Assembly: GCA_035221665.1 (NCBI GenBank)
Contig: CM069144.1
Coordinates: 52,886,001 to 52,950,000 of the forward strand
Source of the DNA: Okamejei kenojei
Lineage: Eukaryota
Direction: 5' to 3'
DNA length: 64,000 nucleotides
Positions 2,900 through 53,788 of this stretch are shown one piece after another. Below the pieces are notes generated by a model. The model ran no database searches, was not told the origin of the DNA, and saw only the letters and a list, made by a program, of their open reading frames with translations. Each line of letters starts with the position of its first letter. The first letter of the stretch is position 1. The translations under genes and the position numbers were made by a program.

Positions 2900-3021
2900 C
2901 ATAGAAAAAAGTAACTGCAGATGCTGGTTTACGAAAAGACACGGTGCTGGAGTATCTCAGCAAGTCAGGCAATATCACTGGAGAACATGGGTAGGTGACA
3001 TTTCAGTCAGGCTCTTCAGAC
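2900..3021 (-). mobile_element. Degenerate Penelope-like 3' end with decayed hammerhead motif
   Basis: Shares AACTGCAGATGCTGG and GCTGGAG..CTCAGC with other PLE ends; minus strand GTCTGAAGA..GAAATGTCACC. Confidence 0.6.
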
Positions 3022-4986
3022 CCCACTTGGATTTATGACCATTTTCCCAATTAAATACCAAGGCTTCACACTTAAATAAAAAAATAAAAGACCTTCCAAT
3101 GTTTAACCATTACCACACCCCCATGAACAAGAAGAGTCAAACATAGAACTGCAAGAAAACTCAGATCATACTTCATGAAAAATGCATAGCCAATATTTAT
3201 CTGCTCAAGATACCTAAAATCAACAATAAATGTAAAAAACATACTTTCTGCAATGGAGTAAGACGTTTTAAAACCAATGGCTTCAAATGTAAAGAAAGTA
3301 AAATGTCAAAATCTAGAATTAAACATTAGAAGTTAAAAAAAAAGCCCCAATTTGCTGTCAATTATTCAATCGTCCATTTTAAATCTAGCTACTGGAAGAA
3401 AAAAAGATCTCCATACCAAAAAAGCTAAAGTCTTAGCATAACCTAGTGGATAAAATACAGAAAGTTGAACATTTGAAAAAAATTATATAGTGAAGGCAGT
3501 CTGAAAATACGTACATTCGTGGCTGAAACTCAGACTTCCCTGAAACAAATTAAACTCACGTTTAACATAATACAGAGAAATGAAAGTGCTGCTGGTTGAA
3601 CAAACGTTGACGAAATGGTGCCGAACTTTAGCCGCTCTCTATAAAAGTTTCAGTAAATAATGTAAACATATTAGTCCTTGTTGAAATTAAGACAAACAAT
3701 GGGTTTGCGGAGATACACAGTGAGTTGGCCATTCCGGTTTACTTTTGCGGCCTACACAATACAGCTACTGTACCGTCATGGTAGTAACGAAATGGTTAAC
3801 TTATTATTTCAACGATAAACATCGCAGCAAAACACCACCACTATCCTTTGCTGTAAAATGCACAAGTTGCTTTTTCGAAGTACATCTTTAACCCATGAAG
3901 ACAAAATTACTGCGCACAGAATGGGGTTAATGTTATACTCGTCTGGTCCATGGAAAATATTACTAATCAGGCCTAGACAACAGGTCTTTTATTTGAGAGC
4001 GTTCGGTATGGTTATAAGCGGCCTACCTCGTACTGGGGTTTAAGCCCAACAATTAGAAGGGAGAGGGTTGAAGCAACTTTAGTTACTGTCAGGTTCAAGC
4101 TTAGTTGCCTCTATTACTAGATCATAAAGGCATTTTTAAAGAGCGAGGGAGGGGAAAGGGGGGGGGGGGGGGGGCAGTGGGGTGTCAGCGTCCAGGCCTG
4201 TGTTTCAGCATCAATCCCCGCTGTCGGAGTTACAGCTGTCGCCGGATGTGTGAACGTCAAACACCAAGTGCTGCTGGGAAGGAAGTCGAGGGGGCGGGAG
4301 AAAGAGGAAATTATTAAAATAAACTTCCTCTGGCAGCCCCCTCCCTCTGCCTCCTCCCCCCCCCCCCCCACCCCCACCTAAAAACAAAAACAAAATCCAA
4401 CCTTTAAACAAAAACCCACACGAAATGTTAAAAAGACCTTAAAGAATTAACTCGCAAAATATGGTTATTTGGTTCCTTGGCCTTTGGGCAAGGCTCAGCC
4501 GAGGCCGCTTCCTATTATCCTCGCACATACAGGAAAAAAGCCAAATGTGCTCACTCATTTTCAGAAAGAGAAACGAATCATATACTCTATAATAAAACAT
4601 GATACACACACATCCCTGCCACCCACTGGCATTCGCATATTTAAGAAACATTTAAAAGCGGTGGTAGGTGCAAGGAAATCTTGCACATCCTGGAAATAGG
4701 CAGAATAGGCTGAGGAATTCATTCTTGGTGCCAAGGAGGGGGGGGGGGGGGGAGGAGGAGAAAAAAAAGCTCAAAAATGTTTTTGCTTTAAAGATAAAGG
4801 AATCACACTGTCCGTCGTTTTTTTCCCCCCTCTTCCTTTCTCTTTCTTTTGCCACTGTTGGAAATAAATGTTATTACCTAGTTTGTTCCAATGCTACAGC
4901 CTGCCACCAGCTGACTCTGTGCCTCTCTCACTAAACTCTCGGCCACCGCGGCGACTCCACTGGGCCAGCCGGGCCCGCCCGCTCAC

Positions 4987-5350
4987 CCTGCTCGGCGCCC
5001 GTATCCCTCCCCGTCCGTCGCCGGGCCTCCTTCCCCTTGTTTCAAGTGGGCGGAATGGAGGAGGGGACAGAGGTGGTGTCACTCCCTTCCTGGCCCCACT
5101 AACCAAACAAACCAAAAATACCCCCCCCCTCCCTCTCATTCCACATTTACCAGGGTAAATATAATATTATCTCTTTCCTTTTTTTGTTTCGAAAAAAAAA
5201 AAAAACCCAAATACCCGTCCAGTCCGCAATATTTACAATTAGTCAACTCTTCTCGCTCCTCCGCCTGCCTCCAGGGGTATCACTGCGCGAGGGTCGTGAC
5301 CCCTGCCGGCCCTGCAAGTCCTGGGAACTGTTCGTCACAGTCACCGGTTG
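4987..5350 (-). other. TRIP12: Probable non-coding first exon of TRIP12 (intron 1 runs off the left edge)
   Basis: Minus-strand donor CAGG|GTGAGC at 4987/4986, weaker CTG|GTAAAT at 5151/5150; TRIP12 is head-to-head with FBXO36 in human. Identity inferred from synteny only; TSS unknown. Confidence 0.5.
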
Positions 5351-5587
5351 ACGTTGGCGATTACATGGCAATTTCCGCGAAATTTCTTTTTTTTTTTTTT
5401 TGTTGTTTTTTTTTTGGGGGGGTAATCGGTTCCGCTGAACGTTTCTTTCCGATGAAAGACACAATGAAGAGTTGCTAATGCATCTCTGGCGAATTTGCAG
5501 TGCGTGAACTTGCAGTGAAGTAAAACTAGTCGCGGCTGCCCTTGTTTACATTCGACGCCGTTGCTCTGGCAATGAAAAGCGTCCAAA

Positions 5588-5683
5588 ATGGCGTCGTTAC
5601 TGCAAGGCACACTTTTTGAAATGAGCGCACAAGCTCCTCCACCGAGTAAGGATTATTACCAGCTGCTGGTCACTAATTCTTTG
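5588..5683 (+). CDS. FBXO36: F-box only protein 36, coding exon 1 (MASLLQGTLFEMSAQAPPPSKDYYQLLVTNSL)
   Basis: ATG at 5588 (context CAAAATGGCG); 96 nt; matches recalled human N-terminus MASWLPETLFETVGQGPPPSKDYYQLLVTRSQ; phase-0 donor TTG|GTGAGT at 5684. Confidence 0.95.
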
Positions 5684-6029
5684 GTGAGTATATAAATCGA
5701 AACATTGATTAACACTGCCTTTAGGTCTGGTGCAATAGAGCAAGTTCGCGGGACGTGAACTTTACCTTTTGTCAGTCTCCACAGTGTTAAAAATATCTGA
5801 CTCGTTTGCTTTTGGTAAATTCAATTTTTTCCTGCCTTTTCAAAAAGTTATTATACTAGTAAGAAATGTTTTAATTACATCCTTTAAATTAGCGCATATT
5901 TAAAAAAAAATTAAGAACTCTAGTGAAGTATAACATTTTAATACCTCGGCAAAAAATGAAAAATGTATCTAATTTGTGTGTATGTTGTAAGATTTAAATA
6001 TAGTGCGAGAAAAATAGCATCTCCCGTTG

Positions 6030-6800
6030 CAGGTCCCGAAGAGCACAATGGCCTCCATCATTCTTAAATGGAAGAACTTGGGAACCACCAGGACTCTTCA
6101 TGGAGCTGGCCGCCTGGCCAAACTGTGCAATCGGGGGAGAAGGGCCTTGGTCAGGGAGGTGACCAAGAATTACTCCGTAAAAAGCACATGACAGCCCACT
6201 CGGAGTTTGCCAAAAGACGCCTAAAGGACTCTGCCATGAGAAACAAGATTCTCTGGTCTGATGAAACCAAGATTGAACTCTTTGGCCCGAATGCCAAGCG
6301 TCACGTCTGGAGGAAACCAGGTACCGCTCATCACCTGGCCAATACCATACCTTCGGTGAAGCATGCTGGTGACCAGCATCATGCTGTTGGGATGTTTTTC
6401 AGCGGCAAGAACTGGGAGACAAGTCAGGATCGAGGGGAAGATGAATGGAGCAAAGTACAGATCCTTGATGAAAACCTGCTCCAGAGCATTTTGCACCTCA
6501 GACTGGGGCGGAAGTTCACCTTCCGACAGGACAACGACCCTAAGCACACAGCCAAGACAACACAAAAGTGGCTTTGTGACAAGTCTGTGAATGTCCTTGA
6601 GGGCCCTGCCAGAGCCCAGACTTGAACCCGATTGAACATCTCTGGAGGGACCTGAAAATAGCTCCCCATCCAACATGACAGAGCTTGAAAGGATCTGCAG
6701 AGAAGAATGGGAGAAATTACCCAAATACAAGTGTGCCAAGCTTGTGGCGTCATACCCAAGAAGACTTGAGGCTGTAATCGCTGCCAAAGGTGCCTCAACA
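6030..6800 (+). mobile_element. Tc1-family transposase fragment (frameshifted, internally deleted, no TIRs seen)
   Basis: ILWSDETKIELFG, FRQDNDPKHTAK, LNPIEHLW, CAKLVASYPRRLEAVIAAKGAST in shifting frames. Confidence 0.92.
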
Positions 6801-6859
6801 AAACACATGCAGACACAGACACACACAAAAAAAAAAATCACCCCCACCCCCCCTTCTTG

Positions 6860-7090
6860 GTGGTTGTAGTGTTTAATAGCCTGATGCTGTTCTTGAACCT
6901 GGATGTTACAGTTTTCAGGCTCCTGTACCACCATCTTTATGGCAGGGGTGAAATGAGTGTGTGGCCAGGGTGGTGTGGGTCTCTGATTCTCTGCCTTTTT
7001 GAGGCAGCGACTGCTGTAAATCTCTTCAATGGTGGGAAGATCGGAATCAGTGATGGACTGGGTATTGGCAACATCATGGGCTTCTTGTAG
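6860..7090 (-). mobile_element. Rex1/Babar-like LINE 3' fragment
   Basis: Homologous to 56800-57020 (AGGCTCCTGTACCA, GAGGCAGCGACTG, GATGGACTGGG). Confidence 0.7.
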
Positions 7091-7874
7091 GACCAGCATG
7101 TTTCATTCTTCACAAAAAGGCAGTTGTTGCTTGAAAATTTCAGAGTTTTAATTGCAGTGACTTTCTTTTCCGTGCGATTTATGTGGACATCCAGGACATC
7201 AATTGTAGCACTCTTTTCAACTACTTTGTATTTTTTGTTCATTTGCAGAATACTTTGAGCATCTGCCTTTCACAAAAAATCTTCTGTTATTCCCCACAAA
7301 CACTACCTTTTTCAAATCAGATACAATAAGAAGGGCAATTGAGAATTGCAATATGAATTAAGTTTGCAGAGATAAAGGTCAAATCTTGAATACATTTTAC
7401 ATTAAGGATTTTTGTTTTGCTGTGTAGAATTTGTGTTGATATGATGGGGCACTTCAAGTGTTTGGAAAGGCCAAGCCCAATGGTTCACGGTTTGCATTTG
7501 AATGTTAGCCATTTTCTCGATTCAGAACCTGGATGTAATTTTTACTAGGTGAAATGTAGAATTGATTGCCATTAAAAACAAAATGATCATTAAGCAATCT
7601 CAATTGGGGGCATTGGAAATGACATGTTTTGTTAATCATAAGCAAAAACATTCGGAGATTAATTAATTACAGATGGTTTCTGAGCTGCTTCAGGGCTGTC
7701 CAATTCAAATGGCATCTGCCTTACTCCCAGGATTCCCAATAAGAAACATTTTAAGTGGCCATGATTATCTTTTCTCAAATGCAGGTGGGAAAATAACACG
7801 GCTTTCCTAAAATAGGCACAAATAAAGTTGTCACATTACTTGGTAATAGATAAAGAGATGCCGTCTTCACCGAG

Positions 7875-10080
7875 ATCCCAGGGTCACTCTCCTCATTAAC
7901 AGAACGAGTGTTATTGTTAAACTCAATACTGGAGCTCATTGTAACGTTCTGTCCATATCTGAGCTCCACAGGATTCGGAATGCTGAAGTCATAAAACAAA
8001 CTGCTGCTACATTACTTCCCTTTGGAGGGGGTGCAGTGCACCCTGTTGGAAGAGTCGAGTTAGTGCCATCTAGCGTCGCGTGTATACAATCTGAGCTTCT
8101 TTATTGTCCGAAATAAAGTGACCTCAGCGGTTTATCAACTATCTACAACACATGGCACCACTCAACAGTTCCTGTCACAATACGGAAATCTCTTTGGCAA
8201 CAAGCTTGGCAAGCTTCCCATAAAGTACACAATCACGACCAACCCAGAGGTTCTGCCAGTTGTCTGTCCCCCACCGGATTCCCCATGCTATGCGGGATCG
8301 TGTACAAAAATAACTCAACAGGATGGAGACTCGAGGTGTGATTGCTCCCGCTGTTGATCCATCGGACTGGGTCTCAACCATGGTAGTAGCAACCAAGAAG
8401 AACAAGGAAGAAATACAGATATGTATTAATCCCAAAGATTTAAACACTGCCATTAAACGACCACACTATCTCATGCGCACAGTGGAAGAAGTCTCAGGGC
8501 AACTGGGCAATGCAACAGTATTCTCAGTTCTAGATGCAAAGAGTTCATTCTGGCAGATTCCACTGGATCACAACTCTTCCAAGCGAACCACCTTCAGTAC
8601 ACATTTTGGATGTTACAAATTCCTGCGCATGCCGTTCGGCATAAACTCGGCAAGTGTAGCATTCCAGCGCGCCATGGAACAACTATTTGCTGGTTACCCT
8701 TGCTCAATCATTGTTGATGGCATTCTCATTGCTGGACAAAATGTCCAAGAACATGACGCAAATTTAAAGAGGGTTCTGGACCGCGCCAAAGAGATCAACC
8801 TCAAGTTTAACCCCCTAAAGTGCAAATTCCGGGTGAGTGAGGTGAACTACGTCAGTCATGCATTCACCCGATCCATCAAAGACTATTGCAATTAACGAGT
8901 TAGCAGCACACACAGATGTGACCAGCCTGCAGAGATTCCTTGGGAAACTATTTGGGAAAATTCAATCCGAATTTCAGCGAACTATCGGCCCCACTGTATC
9001 AGCTAACTCGCAAAGATACTGTATGGTTCTGGCATGAACAGCAGCAGAGGACGTTCAACACTCTTAAACGACAGATGTCTTGTGTCCCCACCCTCACCTA
9101 TTTCGATGTTAAGCTACCTATCACACTAACTTGTGACGCCTCCCAGTATGGCTTAGGAGCAGCCTGCCTTCAAAACAACGGTGACGGCAACAGACCTGCG
9201 GGCTATGCCTCACGCACCATGACTGATTATATACGTGAGAAGGTAGACTCCTGTGCGGTGTGGAACAGTTTGGCACCACTCCAACAAAAGCAGCCACTTC
9301 TCCCACACCCGGTTCCCGACCTCCACAGTGGCAACTGACATTTTTGATTGGCATGGCAAACGATACCTGATCCTAGTCGGCTCGTACTCCGGATGGTTTG
9401 AAATAGATCTACGTAGCCCCACCTCCTCAGTGGTAGTCCAGAAACTGGCACGCCATTTCTCTATCCACGGGGCTCCCTATCAACTACTTTCTGATAATGG
9501 CAGTCAATTTACCAGCCAGTACTTCAAAGACTTTGCTACATGCTGAGACTTTCATCATATCATCAGCAGCCCCGAATACCCACAGTCAAACGGGTTGGCT
9601 GAACCTGCTGTCAGGAGTGCCAAACAAGTGATGGAGTGATCTCACAGAGCAGGGTCAGACGTATTCCTAGACTTCCTCAACCTGCGCAACATGTCTTGTG
9701 ATCTTGTACTGGGGTCACCCACCCAGTGCCTGATGTCAAGACCGATCCTAGCCACACTGCCTGTGGCAAAACAGACCATAGAACCGCAAGTTCGCACAGC
9801 ATCCAAAATCCAATCCAAGCTACAACAAAAATGAGACGTTCAAAAAAGATGGTATGACAAAACGAGCAGACCACTCCCACCACTATCTAAGGGGCAAGTA
9901 GTCCATCTACAAACAGAAAAGGGTCACGGCCGCCTCGGTGTAATATCTCGAACTGCTCCCGAACCACGTTCATATCTGGTCAATGCCGACGGCGGCACCT
10001 ACAGATGTAATAGACAGCATACCTGCCTGTGAATGAACCAGCGCCATCTCTGCACCGTCCCGACCGCACAAGCATACTTC
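7875..10080 (+). mobile_element. Ty3/Gypsy (Mag-like) pol relic: protease, RT, partial RNase H, integrase
   Basis: Protease KLNTGAHCNVL (DTG mutated to NTG); RT VLDAKSSFWQI, RMPFGI, IIVDG (DD lost); RNase H LTCDASQYGLGA; integrase LLSDNGSQF, SSPEYPQSNGLAE; deletion near 9228 joins RNase H to integrase. Confidence 0.93.
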
Positions 10081-11175: not shown

Positions 11176-11189
11176 ACGTGTTCACAGAA

Positions 11190-11320
11190 GGTAGACAAAA
11201 ATGCTGGAGAAACTCAGCGGGTGAGGCAGCCTCATGCAATCCTGCATGTCTCACCCACTGAGTTTCTCCAGCATTTTTTGTCTGCCTTCGATTTTTCCAG
11301 CATCTGCAGTTCTTTCATAA
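11190..11320 (+). mobile_element. PLE-derived hairpin insertion with 14-bp TSD
   Basis: Inverted arms AGACAAAAATGCTGGAGAAACTCAG / CTGAGTTTCTCCAGCATTTTTTGTCT; TSD ACGTGTT(C/A)ACAGAA at 11176-11189 and 11321-11334. Confidence 0.8.
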
Positions 11321-24355: not shown

Positions 24356-26833
24356 CTGGAGAAACTCAGCGGGTGCAGCAGCATCTATGGAGCGAAGGAG
24401 ATAGGCAATGTTTCAGGCCGAAACCCTTCTTCAGACTGATGGGGGGGTGGGGGGAGGCGGGGTGAAGAAAGGAAAAAGGAGGAGGAGGAGCCTGAGGGCT
24501 GAGGGAGAGGTAGGAAGGGGAGGAGACAGTAAGGATTAACAGAATTGAGACAATTCGATGTTTATGCCAAGAGGATGCAGACTCCCCAAGCGGAATATGA
24601 GGTGCTATTCCTCCAATTTGCAGTGTTGCTCACTCTGGCCGTGGAGGAGGCCCAGGACAGAGAGGTCGGATATGGAATGGGAGGGAGAGTTGAAGTGCTG
24701 ATCCACCGGGAGAACGGGTTGGTTAATGCGGACCGACCGAGTTGGCCACGGGAGCCAGGGTGAACCGCAGGAAGAGCGAGGCCATGCTCTTTGGCAACTG
24801 GCCCGACAGATCTTCCGTCCCCTTCACCATCAAGCCTGACTTCTTGAAGGTGCTGGGGATCTGGTTCGGGGGGGCTGAGGCATGTAACAAAAATTGGCTG
24901 GAGCGGATAGCCAGGGTGGGGAGGAAGCTGGAGCTGTGGAGGCAACGCTCCCTCTCCATAACGGGAAAGAATTTGGTCATCAGGTGTGAGGTGCTCTCGG
25001 GGCTGCTGTACTTGGCACAAGTGTGGCCTGTCCCTCCCTCATACACCACAGGGATCACCCAGGCCATCTTCCAGTTCATCTGGGGGTCGAGGATGGACCG
25101 GGTGCGACGGGCCACAATGTACAAGTCGGCAGACAACGGGGGTAAAAGCGTGCCCAACGTCGCCCTCATTCTGATGGCCACCTTCGTGTGTGGCTGCAAC
25201 AGGCGGAGTGTAGAGCCAAGGCACTTGGGCACCAAGTGTCACTACCTGCTGAGGTTCTACCTGTCCCCGGTGTTGAGAAGGATGGGCCTGGCGCAGGTGC
25301 CACGCAATGTGCCAGTCAGCTGGACATTGCCGCCCCATCTGTCGTCGGTGGAAGGGTTCTTCTGGACCAACACCTTTGACCACATGTCCATCGGGCAGTG
25401 GTCAGCACAGAATGTCCTGCAGGCACTGCAGGGAAAGGACTCTATGGTCCCGGTGGCGTGGTTCCCTGAGCAGACTGCCCAGCTTGTCTGGCAAAATGCC
25501 TCATCGCCAGAACTCACCAACAAGCACCAAGACCTGGCTTGGCTGGCGGTGAGGGGAGCCCTCCCAGTCAGATCCTTCCTGCATCGTCGGAACCTCACTG
25601 CCAGCGCACGCTGCCCTCGGGACGGCTGCTATGGTGAGGAGATAGTTGCCCACCTCTTCACAGAGTGTGGGTTTGCTAAAAGAGTCTGGAGAAAAATGCA
25701 AGGGTCCCTGGTACGCTTTATCCCGAACAGCTCCGTCACAGAAGACTCGGTGATTTACGGACTGTTCCCAGGGACACATTCAGAGGCTGACATCAAGTGC
25801 TGCTGGAGGGTCATCAACTCGGTAAAAGATGCCCTTTGGTCTGCCCGAGCATTGTTCACCACCCAGCAGAGCGAGATGTCCGTCAGGGAATGTTGCCGAC
25901 TGGCCCGCTGCAGACTGCAGGAGTACGTGCTGAGGGACGCACTGAAGCTCGGTGCAGCCAACGCCAAGGCTCGGTGGGGGAGGACCACAGTCTAACGCCC
26001 TTCCGCTGCTGGACATGGGGGGTACGGTATGGTGCAGACGCCCCTCAATATAAGGGAAGGTATCCCACGCCACTGTGGCACGAGTGGGGGACTGATTTGT
26101 GGAAATTTGGGGGAAAGAAATGTCTAAACTGTATTGATCTATTGTACAGCCTCCGAAAATGTCGGATGGATTTTCCGCAAGGTTAATGTATTGTATATAT
26201 TTATCATTCGAATAAAGTATATTTTGAAATTTAAAAAAAAAAAGGACCGAGCAGAGGTGTTCGGCGAAACGATCGCCAAGCCTCCGCTTGGTCTCACCGA
26301 TATAGATCAGCTGACATCTAGAGCAGCGGCTGCAATAGATGAGGTTGGAGGAGGTGCAGGTGAACCTCTGACGGACCTGGAACCACTGCTTGGGTCCTTG
26401 AATGGAGTGGAGGGGGGAGGTAAAGCGACAAGTGTAGCATCTCTTGCGGTTGCAAGGGAAAGTGCCCGGGGAAGGGGTGGAGCAGGAGGGAAGGGTAGAA
26501 TTGACAAGGGAGTTGCTGAGGGAGCAGTCTTTGCGGAAGGCACGTTGGAGGTGGGGGAGATGGGAAGATGTGGTGGGGTCACGTTGGAGGTGGCGAAACT
26601 GGCGGAGGACTATGTGTTGTATGTGCCGGCTGGTGGGGTGAAAGGTGAGGACCAGGGGGACTCTGCCCTTGTTGCGAGTGGGGGGGATGGGGAGAGAGGG
26701 CAGTGTTACGGGGTACGGAGGAGACCCTGGTGCGAGCCTCAACTATAGTGGGGGAGGGGAATCCCCGTTCCCTGAAGAATGAGGACATTTGTGATGCCCT
26801 GGTGTGGAACACCTCATCCTGGGAGCAGATGCG
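24356..26833 (-). mobile_element. Penelope-like element (GIY-YIG endonuclease, 3' hammerhead motif), interrupted by Tx1-like L1
   Basis: FTCTSSNLIYC..C..C..IYIGETKRRLGDRFAEH; RVPLVLTFHP; 3' end CTGAAGAAGGGTTTCGGCCTGAAACATT at ~24407-24434. Confidence 0.9.
24737..26243 (+). mobile_element. 5'-truncated Tx1-clade L1 with uninterrupted ORF2 C-terminus (24742-25995)
   Basis: 417-codon ORF with KVLGIWF, RSLSITGKNLVI, GGKSVP and CPRDGC..E...HLF..C knuckle; AATAAA and poly(A); TSD GGACCGA 24730-24736 and 26244-26250. Confidence 0.9.
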
Positions 26834-27929: not shown

Positions 27930-28142
27930 GTGGCACAGCTGGTGGACTTGCTGCCTCACACGCCAGAGATCTGTGTTTGATCCTGTCCTCGGGCACTGTC
28001 TTTGTTGAATTTGCACATTGTCCCTGCAAGCGTGTGGGCTTCCTCCCACATCCCAAAGACGCATTGGCTTTGTAGGTTAACATGTTTGTTAATGTGTAGG
28101 GAGTGGGTGAGGAAAGTGGGATAACAGAATTTGTGTGAATGG
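27930..28142 (+). mobile_element. tRNA-derived V-SINE (HE1-like)
   Basis: TGGCACAGCTGGT A-box, GTTTGATCC B-box, TTTGCACATT..CTCCCACATCCCAAAGAC core. Confidence 0.75.
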
Positions 28143-28144
28143 GG

Positions 28145-29290
28145 AGACAAAAATGCTGGAGAAACTCAGCGGGTGAGGCAGCATCTATGGAGCGAAGGAA
28201 TTAGGCGACGTTTCGGGTTGAGACCCTTCTTCAGACTGGTGTGAGGGTGGGGGGGGCAGGAAGAAGAAAGGAAGAGGCAGAGACTATGGGCTGAGGGAGA
28301 GCTGGGAAAGGGAGGAGAAAGTAGGGACTACCTGAAATTGGAGAAGTCAATGTTCATACCACTGGGTGTAAACTGCCCAAGCGAAATATGAGGTGCTGCT
28401 CCTCCAATTTACGGTGGGCCTCACTCTGGCCATGGAGGAGGCCCAGGACAGAAAGGTCGGATTCGGAATGGGAGGGGAGTTGAAGTGCTGAGCCACCGGG
28501 AGATCAGGTTGGTTATTGTGAACCGAGCGGAGGTGTTGGGCGAAGCGATCGCCAAGCCTACGCCTGGTCTCACCGATGTAGAGCAGCTGACACATAGAGC
28601 AGTGGATGCAATAGATGAGGTTGGAGGAGGTGCCGGTGAACCTCTGCCGCACCTGGAAAGACTGCTCGGGTCCTTGAATGAAGTCAAGGGGGGAGTAAAG
28701 TGACAACTGTAGCATTTCCTGCGGTTGCAAGGGAAAGTACCAGGAGAGTGGGTGGTTTGGGTGGGAAAGGACAAATTGACCAGGGAGTTACGGAGGGAGC
28801 GGTCTCTGCGGAAAGCCGACAGAGGAGGAGATGGAAAGATGTGGCCAATGGAGCAATCCCGTTGGTAGACAAAAATGCTGGCGAAAATCAGCGGGTGAGG
28901 CAACATCTATGGAGCGAAGGAATAGGCGACGTTTCAGGTCTTCAGACATATGTCGGGGAGTGGGGAAGGAAGAGGCGGAGACAGTAGGCTGTGGGAGAGC
29001 TGGGAATGGGAGGGGAAGGCGGGAGAAAGCAAGGACTACCTGAAATTGGAGAAGCCAATGTTCAATCCGCTGGGGTGTAAACTACCCAGGCAAAATATGA
29101 GGTGCTGTTCCTCCAATTTGCGGTGGGCCTCACTCTGGCCATGGAGGAGGCCCAGGACAGAATGGTCGGATTCGGAATGGGAGGGGGAGTTGAAGTGCTG
29201 AGCCACCGGGTGATCAGGTTGGTTATCATGAGCTGAGTGAAGGTGTTGGGCAAAGCGATTGCCAAGCCTGCGCTTGGTCTCACCAAGGTT
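28145..29290 (-). mobile_element. Two tandem Penelope-like 3' fragments (28145-28860, 28865-29290)
   Basis: GIY-YIG NLIYCIHC..YIGETRRRLGDRF; C-terminus RKLEEQHLIF.LGSLHP.G.NI; each ends in a hammerhead-type pLTR. Confidence 0.9.
28204..28240 (-). ncRNA. Minimal type-I hammerhead ribozyme motif (best-preserved copy)
   Basis: CCAGU-CUGAAGA-AGGGUCUCAACCC-GAAA-CGUC-GCC: core boxes, stem II, palindromic ACGU stem III, GUC cleavage triplet; stem I is weak. Confidence 0.65.
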
Positions 29291-32200
29291 GATCATACAC
29301 TGAATAATCCAACCACATTTTTGTTTGGAAATGGAAAGAAATAATAGAAATTGCATTCATTGCAACGTATAAAAAGAATTGAGATACTGTATATGCTGTA
29401 TTATAATTTTGCTGCATTTCATTGTGGTATATATCATGTCTTGATTGGTGAATATGTTTAGTTTGTGACTTTATTTGAAGCAGAAATAATATGTGAATGC
29501 TTTATTGAGCATAATTCCGATATGCACTTCGTCCGAGCACATTATCGCACGCGTCATGCAAGCCGTTTTAAATTACCACCTAAACTGTCATTTGGCAACC
29601 TGAAAAGCTGCCTAGGTTGCCCGGCTGGCATCAGAGAAAAAAAGTTAAGTGAGAGCCCTGCAGTTTCAAATAATAGTTCATAGCTATCAGTTTTTTAATA
29701 ATTAATTGCTTGACCAAGAGATTAATCTGATCATTCATGCATGAGGCGGAGAACAGTTTCGATTTTGTGATCCATCGTTTTATTAAGTCTGCCCATAATG
29801 CTTTGTGGAATGCAACAGGAGTTTAAATAAGTCTATTCTGAGATGAATAATTAAAAACACAAGTAACTTATTATGGTTTCTTCAATCCAGTTAAAATATT
29901 AAGGCATGCTGTTGCTTGACCAGGTCAAACATGTCACAGATCTCAAGTAAGCATTTCACAGTTCTCTAGTAACTACTGGTTGTAGCTGAAACACTCTTGC
30001 ACATTCTCTGGGCAACTGAAAGCACTATTGCATTGTTACTGACCGTATTGTTACCGATATTGCTTGAATTAAATCTAATTACATTTAGAAGTTCCCTTCT
30101 ATAATCAAGTAAATGATAGCCCAGTTATTGGAAAAATAACAGTGTTTATTTTGTCATTTGTCATTGCAAGCTGAAAGACTGTACACTTCCAGTTTACCAT
30201 TACCTAGGTAATGATCATCTTCTAGTATTCAAATGGCACCCGTAAAGCAGTAGTGAAATTAGAATTAAATACTTCTGTACTTTCATTAAATGCTCTTGAC
30301 CTATTTCCACTGTGTGAGAATGCTGTCCTTCAGCCTGGGCTGTGTTGCTTCATGCAAATCCAGATGTTGCGCTGTTAATAGGGCCACATGGTTAGTGTCT
30401 GGAGATCTGCATCCCACTCCACTTCCACAGTTACTGGTGTAGGCTGATATAATGTCCTATGAAACATTTGGCATTATGCTGCCCTTTGCAAAGTTTGTAG
30501 CTTGAGTGTATCACAATCTAGAGCTGTTAATAAAGAAGATCATAAGACATAGAAACAGAATTAGGTCTTTCAACTGAGAGTCTGCTAATCAACTGGAAAA
30601 TGTTCAACTTCCTGCCACTGCATTTGATTGTGTCTCTTGATGTTACCATTGAAGCATGATGGAGAACATTGTACTCAGGAATTTCAGTTTTATTGCTGAC
30701 ATGGTGGAGGGCCAGCTGTAACGTTCAGAAAGCTGAACATTGAGAGTGATTCTAAATATTTTTCAAAAAGATGTTGGCAAGTGTGCAGCCAATCTGTTTT
30801 GGTGGTATTAGCAAGATGTTCATCTTGTCCACAAAAATAAACTGCAGCACAACTGATAATATTAATAATGGATGCTTGTTGAACATGAAATATTGCTATC
30901 ATAATATATGTTTGCTAATCCACTGTCTAAATACTCTAATAAACAAATATATATTCAAAAAAATAAAAATAAACTGCAGCAACAACTATTGCCAGAATGG
31001 AACTGTTATTTTCTTCCTGGGTGACACCACAACAATACTGTTGATCTTTCAGAAGCAAAATATCTGGACTGGTAGAATGGACTGGAAGCTACTTTTAAAA
31101 TTGGTGCTTAGGACAGCAGCAAACTAAAGTTCCTAGGCTAATGTTATACGTCATAGGGTGTGTATTGAAAGAGAAGCTTTGACATGGTGATACCTGGTTG
31201 CTCCGTCATGGTATATTGAGATACTCGCCTATTCCATGTTAGAAATGATCGTCCCATGTCCTTTGCCAATTTAGGATAATAGAGTTTTTGGAAGGCTTCC
31301 TACTGCTTCAGTTGGATGTAGATACTTATTAAATGAAAATTAAAATAAAAAAATTCAAGATGTTGGAAATCTGAAATAAACACAAAATGCTGGAAAAGTT
31401 GAACAGGTCAAGTGGCAGCAGTAGAAAGAAAACATATCTTGCATCAGAACTCCTTGTTAATTGTTTCTATTTCCACAAATGTTGCTGGAAGTCAGAGCAG
31501 CACAAGAACAGAACGTCTATGCTTTCCACGGTGCCAATTTACATTGCATATTTGCCCGCATATGGTTTATATCCCTCAATTCCCAGTTTATCGAATATAT
31601 GCTGTTGTTTATGGTCATTAACTGATTTGTGTAGTGTGAACCATCAAAGCTTTCTTCAGAATCTGCTGGGGAAAAGCTACTTGTTGGCCCTATCCGGCAG
31701 TGGCATGGCATCTGCGATGCCTGTTTGCCCATCTAGTTTTTCTGATGCGTGGGAGCAAAAATATTCTAGTTACTGGAAAATCAAAACAAAAACACAGAAT
31801 ACTGAGCAGGTCAAAAGGCATCAGGAAGAAGAGAAACGGGAGCAACCCTTTGGTTTTGTGACCCGCAATCAGAATTGGGAAAGAAAGAAACCAAGCATAT
31901 TAAATTACAGAGTGGAAGGAATAGAAAATATGAGGTACTTATGGTAATAGACATACCCTGTGTTCTTTGCACTTTTAATGAAATGTTGATTCTACTTCTC
32001 ATCACAAGATGATTCTCATCTATCTTGGCTTCTGAAGACCTACAGTGTTGTACTTTTAAGCATATGGCTATGATTGAGAAATGTCATCTCCCTATGTTCA
32101 TTGACTGGTTTATTTTCCTTATCTGACTATGAAGTCTGCATTTTATTGGTAACAGAATTGAATAGGACAAGAGTTGAATGGGGCTGAAAAAAAGTGAAAC

Positions 32201-34340: not shown

Positions 34341-34678
34341 TGACAAAAATGCTGGAAAGACTATTTCCCACCGCAAATTGGATGAGCAGCACCTCATATT
34401 TCACGGGTAGTTTACACCCCAGCGGTATGAACATTGACCTCCAATTTCAGGTAATCCTTTCTCCCTCCTTCCCCTCCCCTTCCCAGCTCTCCCACAGTCC
34501 ACTGTCTCAGCTTCTTCCTTTCTTCTTCCCGCCTCCCTCCCACCCCCACATCAGTCTGAAGAAGGGTCTCGACCCGAAATGTCACCTGTCCCTTCGCTCC
34601 ATAGATGCTGCCTCACCCGCTGAGTTTCTCCAGCATTTTTGTCTACCTTCGATTTTTCCAGAATCTGCAGTTCTTTCT
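34341..34678 (+). mobile_element. PLE 3' end with short inverted 5' arm, hammerhead motif (34556-34583) and TSD
   Basis: CTGAAGAAGGGTCTCGACCCGAAATGTC; TSD TAAGCTAAATG(G/A)CT at 34324-34337 and 34679-34692. Confidence 0.85.
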
Positions 34679-34729
34679 TAAGCTAAATGACTAATCCAGT
34701 TAGTATAATGGTGTTGAAGTTAGTAAATA

Positions 34730-35044: not shown

Positions 35045-36677
35045 CAGTGGCTTGCAAAAGTATTCATACCCCTTGAACTTTTCCACATTTTGCCACGTTA
35101 CAACCACAAATGTAAATGTATTTTATTGGGATTTTATGTGATAGACCAACACAGAGTGGTGGTGCATAATTGTGAAGTGGAAAGAAAATGATACATGGTT
35201 TCCAAATTTTATTACAAATAAAAAACTGAAAAGTGTGGCGTGCAAAAGTATTCAGCCCCCCTGAATCAATATTTTGTAGAACCACCTTTCACTGCAATTA
35301 CAGCTGCAAGTCTTTTGGGGTATGTCTCTACCAGCTTTGCACATCTAGAGACTGACATTTTTGCCCATTCTTCTTTGCAAAATAGCTCAAGCTCAGTCAG
35401 ATTGGATGGAGAGCGTCTGTGAACAGCAATTTTCAAAGTCATGCCTGAGATTCTCAATTGGATTTAGGTCTGGAATTTGATTGGGCCATTCTAACACATG
35501 AATATGCTTTGATCTAAACCATTCCATTGTAGCTCTTGCTGTATGTTTAGGGTCATTGTCCTGCTGGAAGGTGAACCTCCGCTCCAGTCTCAAGTCTTTT
35601 GCAGACTCTAACAGGTTTTCTTCCAAGATTGCCCTGCATTTGGCTCCATCTATCTTCCCATCAACTCTGACCAGCTACCCTGTCCCTACTGAAGAAAAGC
35701 ATCCCCACAGCATGATGCTACCACCACCATGTTTCACAGTGGGGATGGTGTGTTCAGGGTGATGTGCAGTGTTAGTTTTCCGCCACACATAGCGTTTTGC
35801 ATTTAGGCCAAAAACTTCAATTTTGGTCTCATCAGACCAGAGCACCTTCCTCCACATGCTTGCTGTGTCCCTCACATGGCTTGTGGCAAACTGCAAACAG
35901 GACTTCTTATGGCTTTGTTTCAAAAATGGCTTTCTTCTTGCCACTCTTCCATAAAGGCCCGATTTGTGGAGTGCACGGCTAATAGTTGTCCTGTGGACAG
36001 ATTCTCCCACCTGAGCTGTGGATCTCTGCAGCTCCTCCAGAGTTACCGTGGGCCTTTTGGCTGCTTCTCTGATCAATGTTCTCCTTGCCCAGCCTGTCAG
36101 TTTAGGTGGACGGCCATGTCTTGGTAGGTTTGCAGTTGTGCCATACTCTTTCCATTTTCGGATGATGGATTGAACAGTGCTCCGTGAGATGTTCAAAGCT
36201 TGGGATATTTTTTTATAACCTAACCCAGCTTTAAACTTCTCCACAACTTTATCACTGACCTGTCTGGTGTGTTCCTTGGGCTTCATGATGCCCAAGGAAC
36301 ATTGTTTGTTCACTAATGTTCTCTAACAAACCTCTGAGGCCTTCACAGAACAGCTGTATTTATATTGAGATTAGATTACACACAAGTGGACTTTATTTAC
36401 TAATTAGGTGACTTCTGAAGGCAATTGATTGCACTGGATTTTATTTAGGGGTATCAGAGTAAAAGGGGGCTGAATACTTTTGCACGCCACACTTTTCATT
36501 TTTTTATTTGTAAAAAAATTTGAAAACCATGTATCATTTTCCTTCCACTTCACAATTATGCACCACTTTGTGTTGGTCTATCACATAAAATCCCAATAAA
36601 ATACATTTACGTTTGTGATTGTAACGCGACAAAATGTGGAAAAGTTCAATGGGTATGAATACTTTTGCAAGCCACTG
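35045..36677 (-). mobile_element. Full-length Tc1 (IR/DR type, Passport-like) transposon, 1633 bp
   Basis: TA TSDs; ~215-bp TIRs CAGTGGCTTGCAAAAGTATTCATACC with inner DR GCAAAAGTATTCAGCCCC; transposase from ATG 36286 to ~35266 with WSDETK, QDND, NPIEN; one TAG (35675-35677) and one frameshift (~35435). Confidence 0.97.
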
Positions 36678-48127: not shown

Positions 48128-48300
48128 TTCATGTTTCTGTCATTTTTGGTAATGGCGTCCTCAAGTATGTCTGTGGCCTGTGTCAGCAGCAGTTTGATTA
48201 TCTCGAACGTCTTCCTAAAGACCTGCTTCTTAATGTCATTTTATGTTTGGAGCTTGAGGACATCGCTAGACTTTCCCAAACATCCAGAGCGTTTAAAAAG
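48128..48300 (+). CDS. FBXO36: FBXO36 coding exon 3, F-box motif (VHVSVIFGNGVLKYVCGLCQQQFDYLERLPKDLLLNVILCLELEDIARLSQTSRAFKK)
   Basis: TTTTAG| acceptor, 173 nt, donor AAG|GTGAGC; F-box signature LERLPKDLLLNVILCLELEDIARLSQTS; phases fit exons 2 and 4. Confidence 0.95.
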
Positions 48301-52311: not shown

Positions 52312-52535
52312 AGACACAAAAAGCTGGGGTAACTCAGCGGGACAGGCAGCATCTCTGGATAGAAGGAATAGATGACGTTTTGGGTCGAGACCCTTCCTCA
52401 GACTCTGAAGAAAGGTCTCGACCTGAAACTTCACCCATTTCTTCTCTGTAGAGATGCTGCCTGTCCCGCTGAGTTACACCAGCTTTTTGTGTCTATCTTT
52501 GGTTTGAACCAGCATCTGCAGTTCCTTCTTACACG
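52312..52535. mobile_element. Palindromic PLE-derived insertion with two back-to-back hammerhead motifs
   Basis: Arms ~52311-52402 and ~52403-52495; TSD AATGTTT(A/T)CCAAT 52299-52311 and 52536-52548. Confidence 0.85.
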
Positions 52536-53575: not shown

Positions 53576-53788
53576 ATATGCAATTCTGATGAACTCTGGG
53601 AACATATTGTTTTGAGATATTGTGATACCATAACCTCTGAGATGCAAGCATTGGCTTTCGATGTTGGTTGGAAGGAGATCTTCTTCACCAACAAACTTCA
53701 GCTGCAGAAAAAAATCCACCGAAGACGGCAAAAAGTTGAGGATGATGCCACTGACGTACCAGATCAAGACCATGCGTTGCAGACTTAA
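53576..53788 (+). CDS. FBXO36: FBXO36 coding exon 4 to stop (ICNSDELWEHIVLRYCDTITSEMQALAFDVGWKEIFFTNKLQLQKKIHRRRQK...)
   Basis: Pyrimidine tract plus TGCAG| acceptor; conserved CDTIT and GW..FFTNKLQLQ motifs; TAA ends 53788; spliced CDS 96+109+173+213=591 nt. Confidence 0.95.
   Translation: MCNSDELWEHIVLRYCDTITSEMQALAFDVGWKEIFFTNKLQLQKKIHRRRQKVEDDATDVPDQDHALQT

What the first reader, a model, noticed from the sequence alone, without database searches (positions are those of the whole stretch)
28204..28240. Family of minimal hammerhead ribozyme motifs in Penelope termini
Seen: AGU-CUGAAGA-[AGGGUCUCGACCC stem II]-GAAA-CGUC recurs at 28207-28234 (-), ~24407-24434 (-), 34556-34583 (+), twice in 52372-52433, and decayed at ~28928-28946 and ~2995-3021, always at the 3' end of GIY-YIG Penelope-like sequence. 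Established: PLE pseudo-LTRs carry minimal type-I hammerheads with a palindromic stem III that work as dimers. Inference: this lineage uses a CUGAAGA variant with unusually weak stem I (about 2 bp next to the core); the + copies lie in sense within FBXO36 introns and could cut pre-mRNA if active.
Basis: partly seen in the sequence, partly recalled or inferred. Interest (0 to 1): 0.7.

Follow-up and report, generated by a model that had tools for sequence, protein, structure and literature searches.

The report
Penelope-end minimal hammerhead, two-pair stem
This is a stripped-down self-cutting RNA motif of a known kind at the ends of a very abundant jumping gene; the copies inside this gene's introns are damaged and likely idle, but where copies begin across the genome hints that the jumping gene's RNA starts just ahead of the motif and may sometimes be cut by it.

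Summary
The motif is real: all seven listed sites exist, and the genome holds 48,215 exact copies and 119,245 intact-core copies (controls 0 and 235). It lies in both end repeats of a near-full-length RT + GIY-YIG Penelope-like element with a Neptune/Nematis-type linker. It meets the published minimal-hammerhead definition. CUGAAGA is not a variant (30 of 56 published motifs). Helix I is 2 bp, as in 6 of those 56, but is weaker here (U·G or U-A plus G-C). No two-sided covariation exists among this genome's subfamilies. The host-cutting idea is unsupported. The focal copy is antisense. Both sense copies have a mutated helix III, and one is predicted to be buried in a long hairpin. In the youngest subfamily, 63 of 122 copies begin at the motif's 5' edge, consistent with uncut RNA starting there. 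A smaller pile begins at the predicted cut site in two of three subfamilies (hand tallies). The scan has reported this motif and the 5'-edge pile many times before, on this genome and on others. Verdict: new member of a known kind, modest interest.

The parts
28207..28234 (-). Best-preserved minimal hammerhead of the window (subfamily A1): core, extra A after A9, 4-bp helix II, ACGU palindrome; predicted cut between 28207 and 28206; antisense to the host gene
28141..28860 (-). 5'-truncated Penelope copy: broken RT-linker/GIY-YIG end, 3'UTR, hammerhead and short tail
   Evidence: (GIY-YIG E 8.6e-4, below Pfam cut-off)
28864..29296 (-). Second truncated copy in partial tandem directly upstream; its hammerhead (28928-28946) has lost helix II but keeps the ACGU, the cut site and the 3' strand of helix I
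24356..26833 (-). Truncated Penelope copy interrupted by another retroelement (about 24740-26240); hammerhead 24407-24434 with broken palindrome; tail runs into an N stretch
34342..34680 (+). Truncated copy with a short inverted tail piece at its 5' end, long tail and a 12-nt flanking duplication; hammerhead 34556-34583 is sense to the host gene, helix III reads AUGU
52312..52530 (.). Head-to-head pair of bare end pieces (subfamily C; short tail on the minus arm, long tail on the plus arm); both hammerheads damaged; predicted long hairpin, -136.6 kcal/mol for 52312-52494
2945..3021 (-). Old decayed end piece, upstream of host exon 1
11187..11316 (.). Head-to-head pair of tail-only pieces without hammerhead
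5588..5683 (+). Host gene, first coding exon (ATG to GT donor), FBXO36-like
48128..48300 (+). Host gene F-box exon with AG/GT ends
   Evidence: Atlas rank 3 'F-box only protein 36', score 0.85, a lead only
53576..53788 (+). Host gene last coding exon
   Evidence: Atlas F-box clusters, scores under 0.9

Best explanation
The motif is the minimal hammerhead carried in the end repeat of a very abundant Penelope-like retrotransposon; it likely cuts only slowly, when two element RNAs pair through the ACGU palindrome with help from the element's protein, and the scattered copies in this window are likely inert. Shown: the anatomy, the place in both end repeats of an RT + GIY-YIG element, the copy number and the damage to the window's copies. 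Inferred: element RNA starts 1-3 nt before the core, so helix I cannot be much longer than 2-3 bp at the 5' end. Reverse transcription starts internally at one of two tail sites about 96 or about 128 nt downstream and mostly copies uncut RNA, which gives the many 95-130-nt stubs and head-to-head pairs. A few per cent of templates may have been cut at GUC. Cleavage itself was not tested.
For: L112 has a hammerhead 160 nt before the ATG and another at the 3' end of a 4,034-nt element with DKG, YIDD, a CX4CX2C linker and a CxxC inside GIY..YIG. The core, the extra nucleotide, G10.1-C11.1 and the palindrome match the published definition (PMC4209133). The 28-nt motif is identical between subfamilies A1 and B, whose upstream 150 nt align at only 55% and downstream 60 nt at 82% (one pair of representatives). 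Same-architecture motifs from metagenome contigs covary at positions left free by the search: helix I pair 1 in 89 of 95 (shuffle mean 41.6, maximum 59), pair 2 in 86 of 95, helix II pair 3 in 86 of 95. 63 of 122 subfamily-B copies begin at -4..+11. 3' ends fall at <=+102 in 83 and >=+119 in 39 of 122, and 32 of 35 inverted pairs join one short and one long tail. This fits the two RT start sites, protein-assisted cleavage and uncut template shown for the anole element (PMC11167929). The active dimer is predicted 3.9 (B) and 8.3 (C) kcal/mol less stable than two monomers.
Against: There are no cleavage data. No two-sided covariation occurs among this genome's subfamily majorities, and no subfamily with a C-G first pair of helix I was seen among 100 of 1,379 listed matches. 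Rfam finds nothing. The constancy of the 28 nt could reflect a promoter or protein-binding role. No raw RNA reads were available, so the start site is not shown. The cap-like G before +1 is enriched (38 of 80), but only 2 of 4 copies with a target duplication and a single extra base have G. The 122-copy sample is not fully unbiased: it mixes most of the first 100 anchor hits on contig 1 with loci fetched for other reasons.
Confidence: 0.72

Rival explanations
1. The ribozyme in this lineage is dead or nearly so. Helix I has shrunk below a workable size, and the 28 nt are kept because they overlap the element's promoter or RT-binding RNA.
For: Helix I is weaker than any 2-bp helix I among the 56 published rows. 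Monomer folds are no better than shuffles (z 0.14-0.72). Subfamily C shows no step at the cut site (8 of 39 ends in 5 of 28 positions, p 0.39). Naiad elements spread without canonical hammerheads (PMC8557442 passages).
Against: All catalytic nucleotides, the palindrome and both helix I pairs are kept in every subfamily majority, and pair 1 switches between U·G and U-A without breaking. 5' ends step up at the cut site in subfamilies B and A1.
Confidence: 0.2
2. One reading: sense copies in FBXO36 introns cut the host pre-mRNA.
For: Two copies (34556, 52405) are in sense within the plus-strand gene. About 78,000 intact cores are extrapolated genome-wide from 21 in 740 kb, so partner RNAs in trans may exist.
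Against: Both sense copies are mutated in helix III. The 52405 copy also lacks G10.1-C11.1 and is predicted 25/28 paired to its opposite arm. They lie 17.8 kb apart. Published minimal hammerheads show no monomer activity. Of the six hammerhead-bearing copies inside the gene, four are antisense.
Confidence: 0.04
3. The pile of 5' ends at the motif's edge marks a 3' splice site or an RT stop at RNA structure, not a transcription start.
For: A pyrimidine tract, a branch-point-like CUGAC/CUAAC in some subfamilies and CAG lie just before +3. In D. virilis Penelope the intron end maps to the 5' end of helix I.
Against: Simple copies abut their target duplication, or a few varied extra bases, with no shared upstream exon. 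An RT stalled by the ribozyme fold would stop at its 3' side, not its 5' side (inference).
Confidence: 0.25

Closest known systems
Minimal hammerheads of metazoan PLE pseudo-LTRs (Cervera and de la Pena 2014, PMC4209133; read: main text parts 1-2 of 4, supplement file 2 parts 1-2 of 3; file 1 not searchable)
   Same: Type I topology, CUGANGA plus one extra nucleotide, G10.1-C11.1, loopless palindromic helix III, place in both end repeats, mostly solitary copies.
   Different: No cartilaginous fish among the 56 rows seen. Copy number is about 119,000 here against about 4,000-9,000 for coelacanth and frog. The 2-bp helix I includes U·G or U-A. Subfamilies share one almost invariant motif instead of being highly variable.
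Poseidon element PAc of the green anole (Frangieh et al. 2024, PMC11167929; read: parts 1-2 of 4)
   Same: Hammerhead near the ORF start; two internal RT start sites giving short and long tails; uncut RNA as main template.
   Different: Here the motif lies 160 nt upstream of the ATG instead of overlapping it, and the linker is of Neptune/Nematis type. The parts read do not describe where the 5' ends of genomic copies fall, and found no RNA-seq reads ending at the cut site.
Neptune/Nematis EN+ Penelope-like elements (Craig et al. 2021, PMC8557442; passages only)
   Same: C-terminal GIY-YIG, CX2-5CxxC linker, partial tandems, inverted 5' copies, tail at one end only.
   Different: Clade not resolved; no RT tree was built.
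Non-LTR retrozymes (bioRxiv 10.64898/2026.07.22.740005; read: part 1 of 5 and passages)
   Same: Type I hammerheads related to PLE end repeats; reported in one cartilaginous fish.
   Different: These require tandem units each with a complete hammerhead. The window's only tandem has one broken motif, and its units carry ORF remnants.

Membership tests
Minimal PLE hammerhead | Core CUGANGA, GAAA, NUH | tested here: met
Minimal PLE hammerhead | One nucleotide between 9 and 10.1, and G10.1-C11.1 | tested here: met
   subfamily majorities, except old subfamily D (G·U); definition
Minimal PLE hammerhead | Palindromic 15.2-16.2 without loop 3 | tested here: met
   ACGU in all six class majorities
Minimal PLE hammerhead | Helix I closing the motif | tested here: met
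   2 bp, at the low end of the published range (6 of 56 rows)
Minimal PLE hammerhead | Present in both end repeats of an RT-EN ORF | tested here: met
   L112
Minimal PLE hammerhead | Compensatory covariation | tested here: inconclusive
   one-sided only within the genome; strong across 95 metagenome motifs of the same layout, which does not test this family itself
Minimal PLE hammerhead | Self-cleavage as dimer | not testable with these tools
   needs an in vitro assay
Rfam hammerhead families | Match to an Rfam model | tested here: not met
   none among 28 matches at E<=10
Neptune/Nematis EN+ PLE | CX2-5CxxC linker before a C-terminal GIY-YIG with internal CxxC | tested here: met
   GIY-YIG and RVT_1 hits are below Pfam cut-offs
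Neptune/Nematis EN+ PLE | RT phylogeny | not tested
   no reference PLE proteins at hand
Non-LTR retrozyme | Two or more consecutive tandem units with complete hammerheads and no ORF | tested here: not met
   window tandem 28141-29296 has one broken motif and ORF remnants; not tested genome-wide

The most novel reading that the evidence does not exclude
The genome keeps a fossil record of the ribozyme working in vivo. Most short copies come from uncut RNA that starts at the first base of helix I, but about 3-4% of young copies begin at or just after the GUC cut site. This would mean that a hammerhead with a 2-bp helix I cuts in the germ line, presumably as a protein-held dimer, and that the cut product is reverse-transcribed and inserted.
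Probability: 0.3. Interest if true: 0.62.

Novelty: new member of a known kind. Interest (0 to 1): 0.3.

Why it matters
The role of Penelope hammerheads is still open (PMC8557442 passage), and the one biochemical study found no RNA ends at the cut site. A genome with about 50,000 young copies makes insertion ends countable, which gives a route to the element's RNA start and to how often cut RNA serves as template. For the host gene in this window the finding probably does not matter.

Tried and rejected
1. Rfam scan: no hammerhead match.
2. Search for a subfamily with a C-G first pair of helix I: 1,379 matches; the 100 listed were sporadic changes or truncations.
3. The idea that the +1 pile is cleavage at the upstream AGUC in trans: rejected, because helix I cannot form in that register (by inspection).
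4. A dimer through swapped helix II strands. The predicted minimum-energy dimer (-19.7 kcal/mol for B; its pairing was not printed) is far below the active dimer (-6.7), but a swapped helix II could not also close helix III, which stacks on it (own knowledge). The loop is better read as a YNMG tetraloop (26 of 33; class name recalled).
5. RNA evidence: only assembled contigs were offered. The depth drop at the motif's edge in X14 is confounded by subfamily differences and genomic copy ends. No host splice joint was among the joints shown, and the last exon had no cover. Neither counts as evidence.
6. The 841-aa open frame that pointed to L111 was a repeat fused to an endonuclease end, not an intact ORF.
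7. Cut-site step in subfamily C: not seen.
8. Of about 22 subfamily-B copies starting at +32..+36 that were inspected with flanks, none had a clear target duplication; most were second arms of inverted pairs or complex junctions (output partly cut).
9. Lunse et al. 2017 was not held; it is known here only through a review passage, and it may already describe this or shorter helix I variants.
10. Host exon 2 was not found; it may lie under an N stretch.

Full report
Numbering: the A three bases before CUGAAGA is +1; the predicted cut lies between +31 and +32. The host is probably a cartilaginous fish. This rests on recall of the repeat and on earlier scan notes and was not tested.

Observation. 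All seven sites exist. Only 28207-28234(-) is intact in core, helix II, palindrome and helix I. The others carry changes in helix III (24407, 34556, 52405), in the core (52374), a 10-nt deletion (28928) or general decay (2995). In the window the loose pattern is barely above chance (4 against 1.05), and Rfam finds no hammerhead. In the 2.76-Gb genome the exact 28-mer occurs 48,215 times (control 0) and the relaxed core 119,245 times (control 235). In 74 blind 10-kb stretches (740 kb) a profile found 278 end pieces, 173 covering the motif and 21 intact. That extrapolates to about 1.0 million, 0.64 million and 78,000.

The carrier. L112 holds a 4,034-nt element: hammerhead, ATG 160 nt later, a frameshifted ORF with DKG, YIDD, CX4CX2C linker and GIY-YIG with internal CxxC, then a 3'UTR, a second hammerhead and a tail. 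Pfam hits (RVT_1, GIY-YIG) are weak and below cut-off. The linker places it with Neptune or Nematis by the definition in PMC8557442 (passages); no tree was built. The focal copy is the downstream member of a partial tandem of two truncated copies (28141-29296). Four of the seven window motifs have endonuclease or 3'UTR sequence upstream; three are bare end pieces.

Anatomy against the known class. Core, extra nucleotide after A9, G10.1-C11.1 and the loopless ACGU palindrome meet the definition of Cervera and de la Pena. CUGAAGA is in 30 of the 56 rows of their Fig. S3, and a 2-bp helix I in 6 of 56, all with two G-C pairs (my count). No cartilaginous fish is listed there. One search for hammerhead ribozyme + Penelope + shark returned one paper, where 'shark' refers to the shape. 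A 2026 preprint reports retrozymes in one unnamed cartilaginous fish. Lunse et al. 2017 could not be read. Here helix I is U·G + G-C (subfamilies A, B) or U-A + G-C (C, D). Helix II is almost invariant, with one-sided changes only (307 near-full copies sorted into six classes, 98 unassigned). The motif is 100% identical between representatives of A1 and B, whose upstream 150 nt align at 55%. A pattern scan of metagenome contigs gave 124 loci, 5 of them with an endonuclease match. Among 95 distinct motifs the free positions pair far above column shuffles: helix I pairs 1-4 in 89, 86, 67 and 59 of 95 (shuffle means 35-42); pair 5 is at chance. Related sequences inflate such counts. Contiguous helix I is 2 bp or less in 37 of 100 of these motifs, decayed copies included. 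The layout is therefore a real structured RNA class, and this family sits at the weak end of it.

Host gene. Three plus-strand exons with proper splice ends (5588-5683, 48128-48300, 53576-53788) fit an F-box gene; FBXO36 is a lead from the Atlas. The focal copy is antisense. The two sense copies are mutated in helix III and 17.8 kb apart. The one at 52405 is predicted to have 25 of 28 bases paired to its inverted partner. Published monomers do not cut. Pre-mRNA cutting here is unlikely.

Where copies begin. For the young subfamily B (49,777 anchor matches), 122 anchored copies were mapped: 34 run past -268, 6 start at -240..-28, 63 at -4..+11, 11 at +12..+31, 7 at +32..+36 and 1 later. Genome-wide, 24,034 of the 49,777 differ from the element at -15, or about 61% after correction, indels included. 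The main pile is at the motif's 5' edge, not at the cut site, so uncut RNA is the likely main template, as in the anole element. The sequence around +1 fits an initiator (consensus recalled). G precedes +1 in 38 of 80 listed copies, after dropping 20 that share two recurrent junctions (expected 27%, p 5e-5). With target duplications as anchor the G signal is thin (2 of 4 single extra bases). A 3' splice site at the same place is a live rival. 3' ends fall at two sites, and 32 of 35 inverted pairs join a short and a long tail, matching the known one-sided tail and the two RT start sites.

The cut-site signal. Hand tallies of the first 100 listed matches of four searches, indel copies dropped:
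- B, (30 dropped): 5 ends at +28..+31, 39 at +32..+36, 26 at +37..+49. Without inverted or tandem junctions, 16 of 31 fall at +32..+36 (p 4e-4).
- B, (15 dropped, partly overlapping): 27 of 85 at +32..+36, and 10 at exactly +32.
- A1, (77 dropped, mostly a length variant): 8 of 23, and 4 at exactly +32 (p 0.007).
- C, (61 dropped): 8 of 39, no excess (p 0.39).
Statistics are; they put the +32..+36 class at about 2.6-4.3% of B copies. The five-base width was chosen after seeing the data. The mode is +35, where a TA microhomology lies, and the inspected copies lacked clear target duplications. This is a lead, not a result.

Mechanism. Most likely the motif cuts only in the element's own RNA, when two molecules or tandem units pair through ACGU and helix I forms between strands, with protein help. 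The active dimer is predicted less stable than two monomers by 3.9-8.3 kcal/mol. Only 4 of 21 intact cores have an intact same-strand neighbour within 4.5 kb inside the 10-kb stretches. Dispersed copies are by-products of reverse transcription.

Verdict. New member of a known kind. The scan holds 784 notes with these words in at least 42 genomes and 60 in this genome, several with the same 5'-edge reading and one with the cut-site reading. My 5'-edge and cut-site readings were written down before those look-ups, and those notes are not independent support. Interest 0.30.

Noticed in passing
G000:C1, e.g. L256, L276, L278, L046: One inverted junction (reversed long tail joined to +1) recurs in 14 of 100 listed copies and another in 6 of 100, with shared 3' flanks in the few seen. 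These may be short non-autonomous units or passengers in another repeat.
   Followed up: no
L116:2991-3950: Tandem array of about 16 tail-only units of about 55 nt behind one hammerhead-bearing copy.
   Followed up: no
L112:7848-7643: A 95-nt end piece inserted into the element's own 3'UTR copy with a 12-nt duplication, which puts two intact hammerheads 205 nt apart on one strand upstream of the ORF. A natural test case for dimer cleavage.
   Followed up: partly
L112:7595-7520 (-): The tail is predicted to fold into a long stem with an inner hairpin spanning the region of the two 3' end sites. It is a candidate RT-binding structure.
   Followed up: partly
window 24727-25992 (+): A 422-aa open frame of another retroelement splits the Penelope copy at 24356-26833.
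   Followed up: no
window 6068-6622 (+), 35396-36322 (-), 8314-9543 (+): Tc1-like transposase remnants and a Gypsy-like RT/integrase remnant; family names recalled from the translations.
   Followed up: no
L047, L058, L037 and three listed places: A subfamily-C end piece starting at +28 recurs with the same flank, probably one insertion spread inside another repeat.
   Followed up: no
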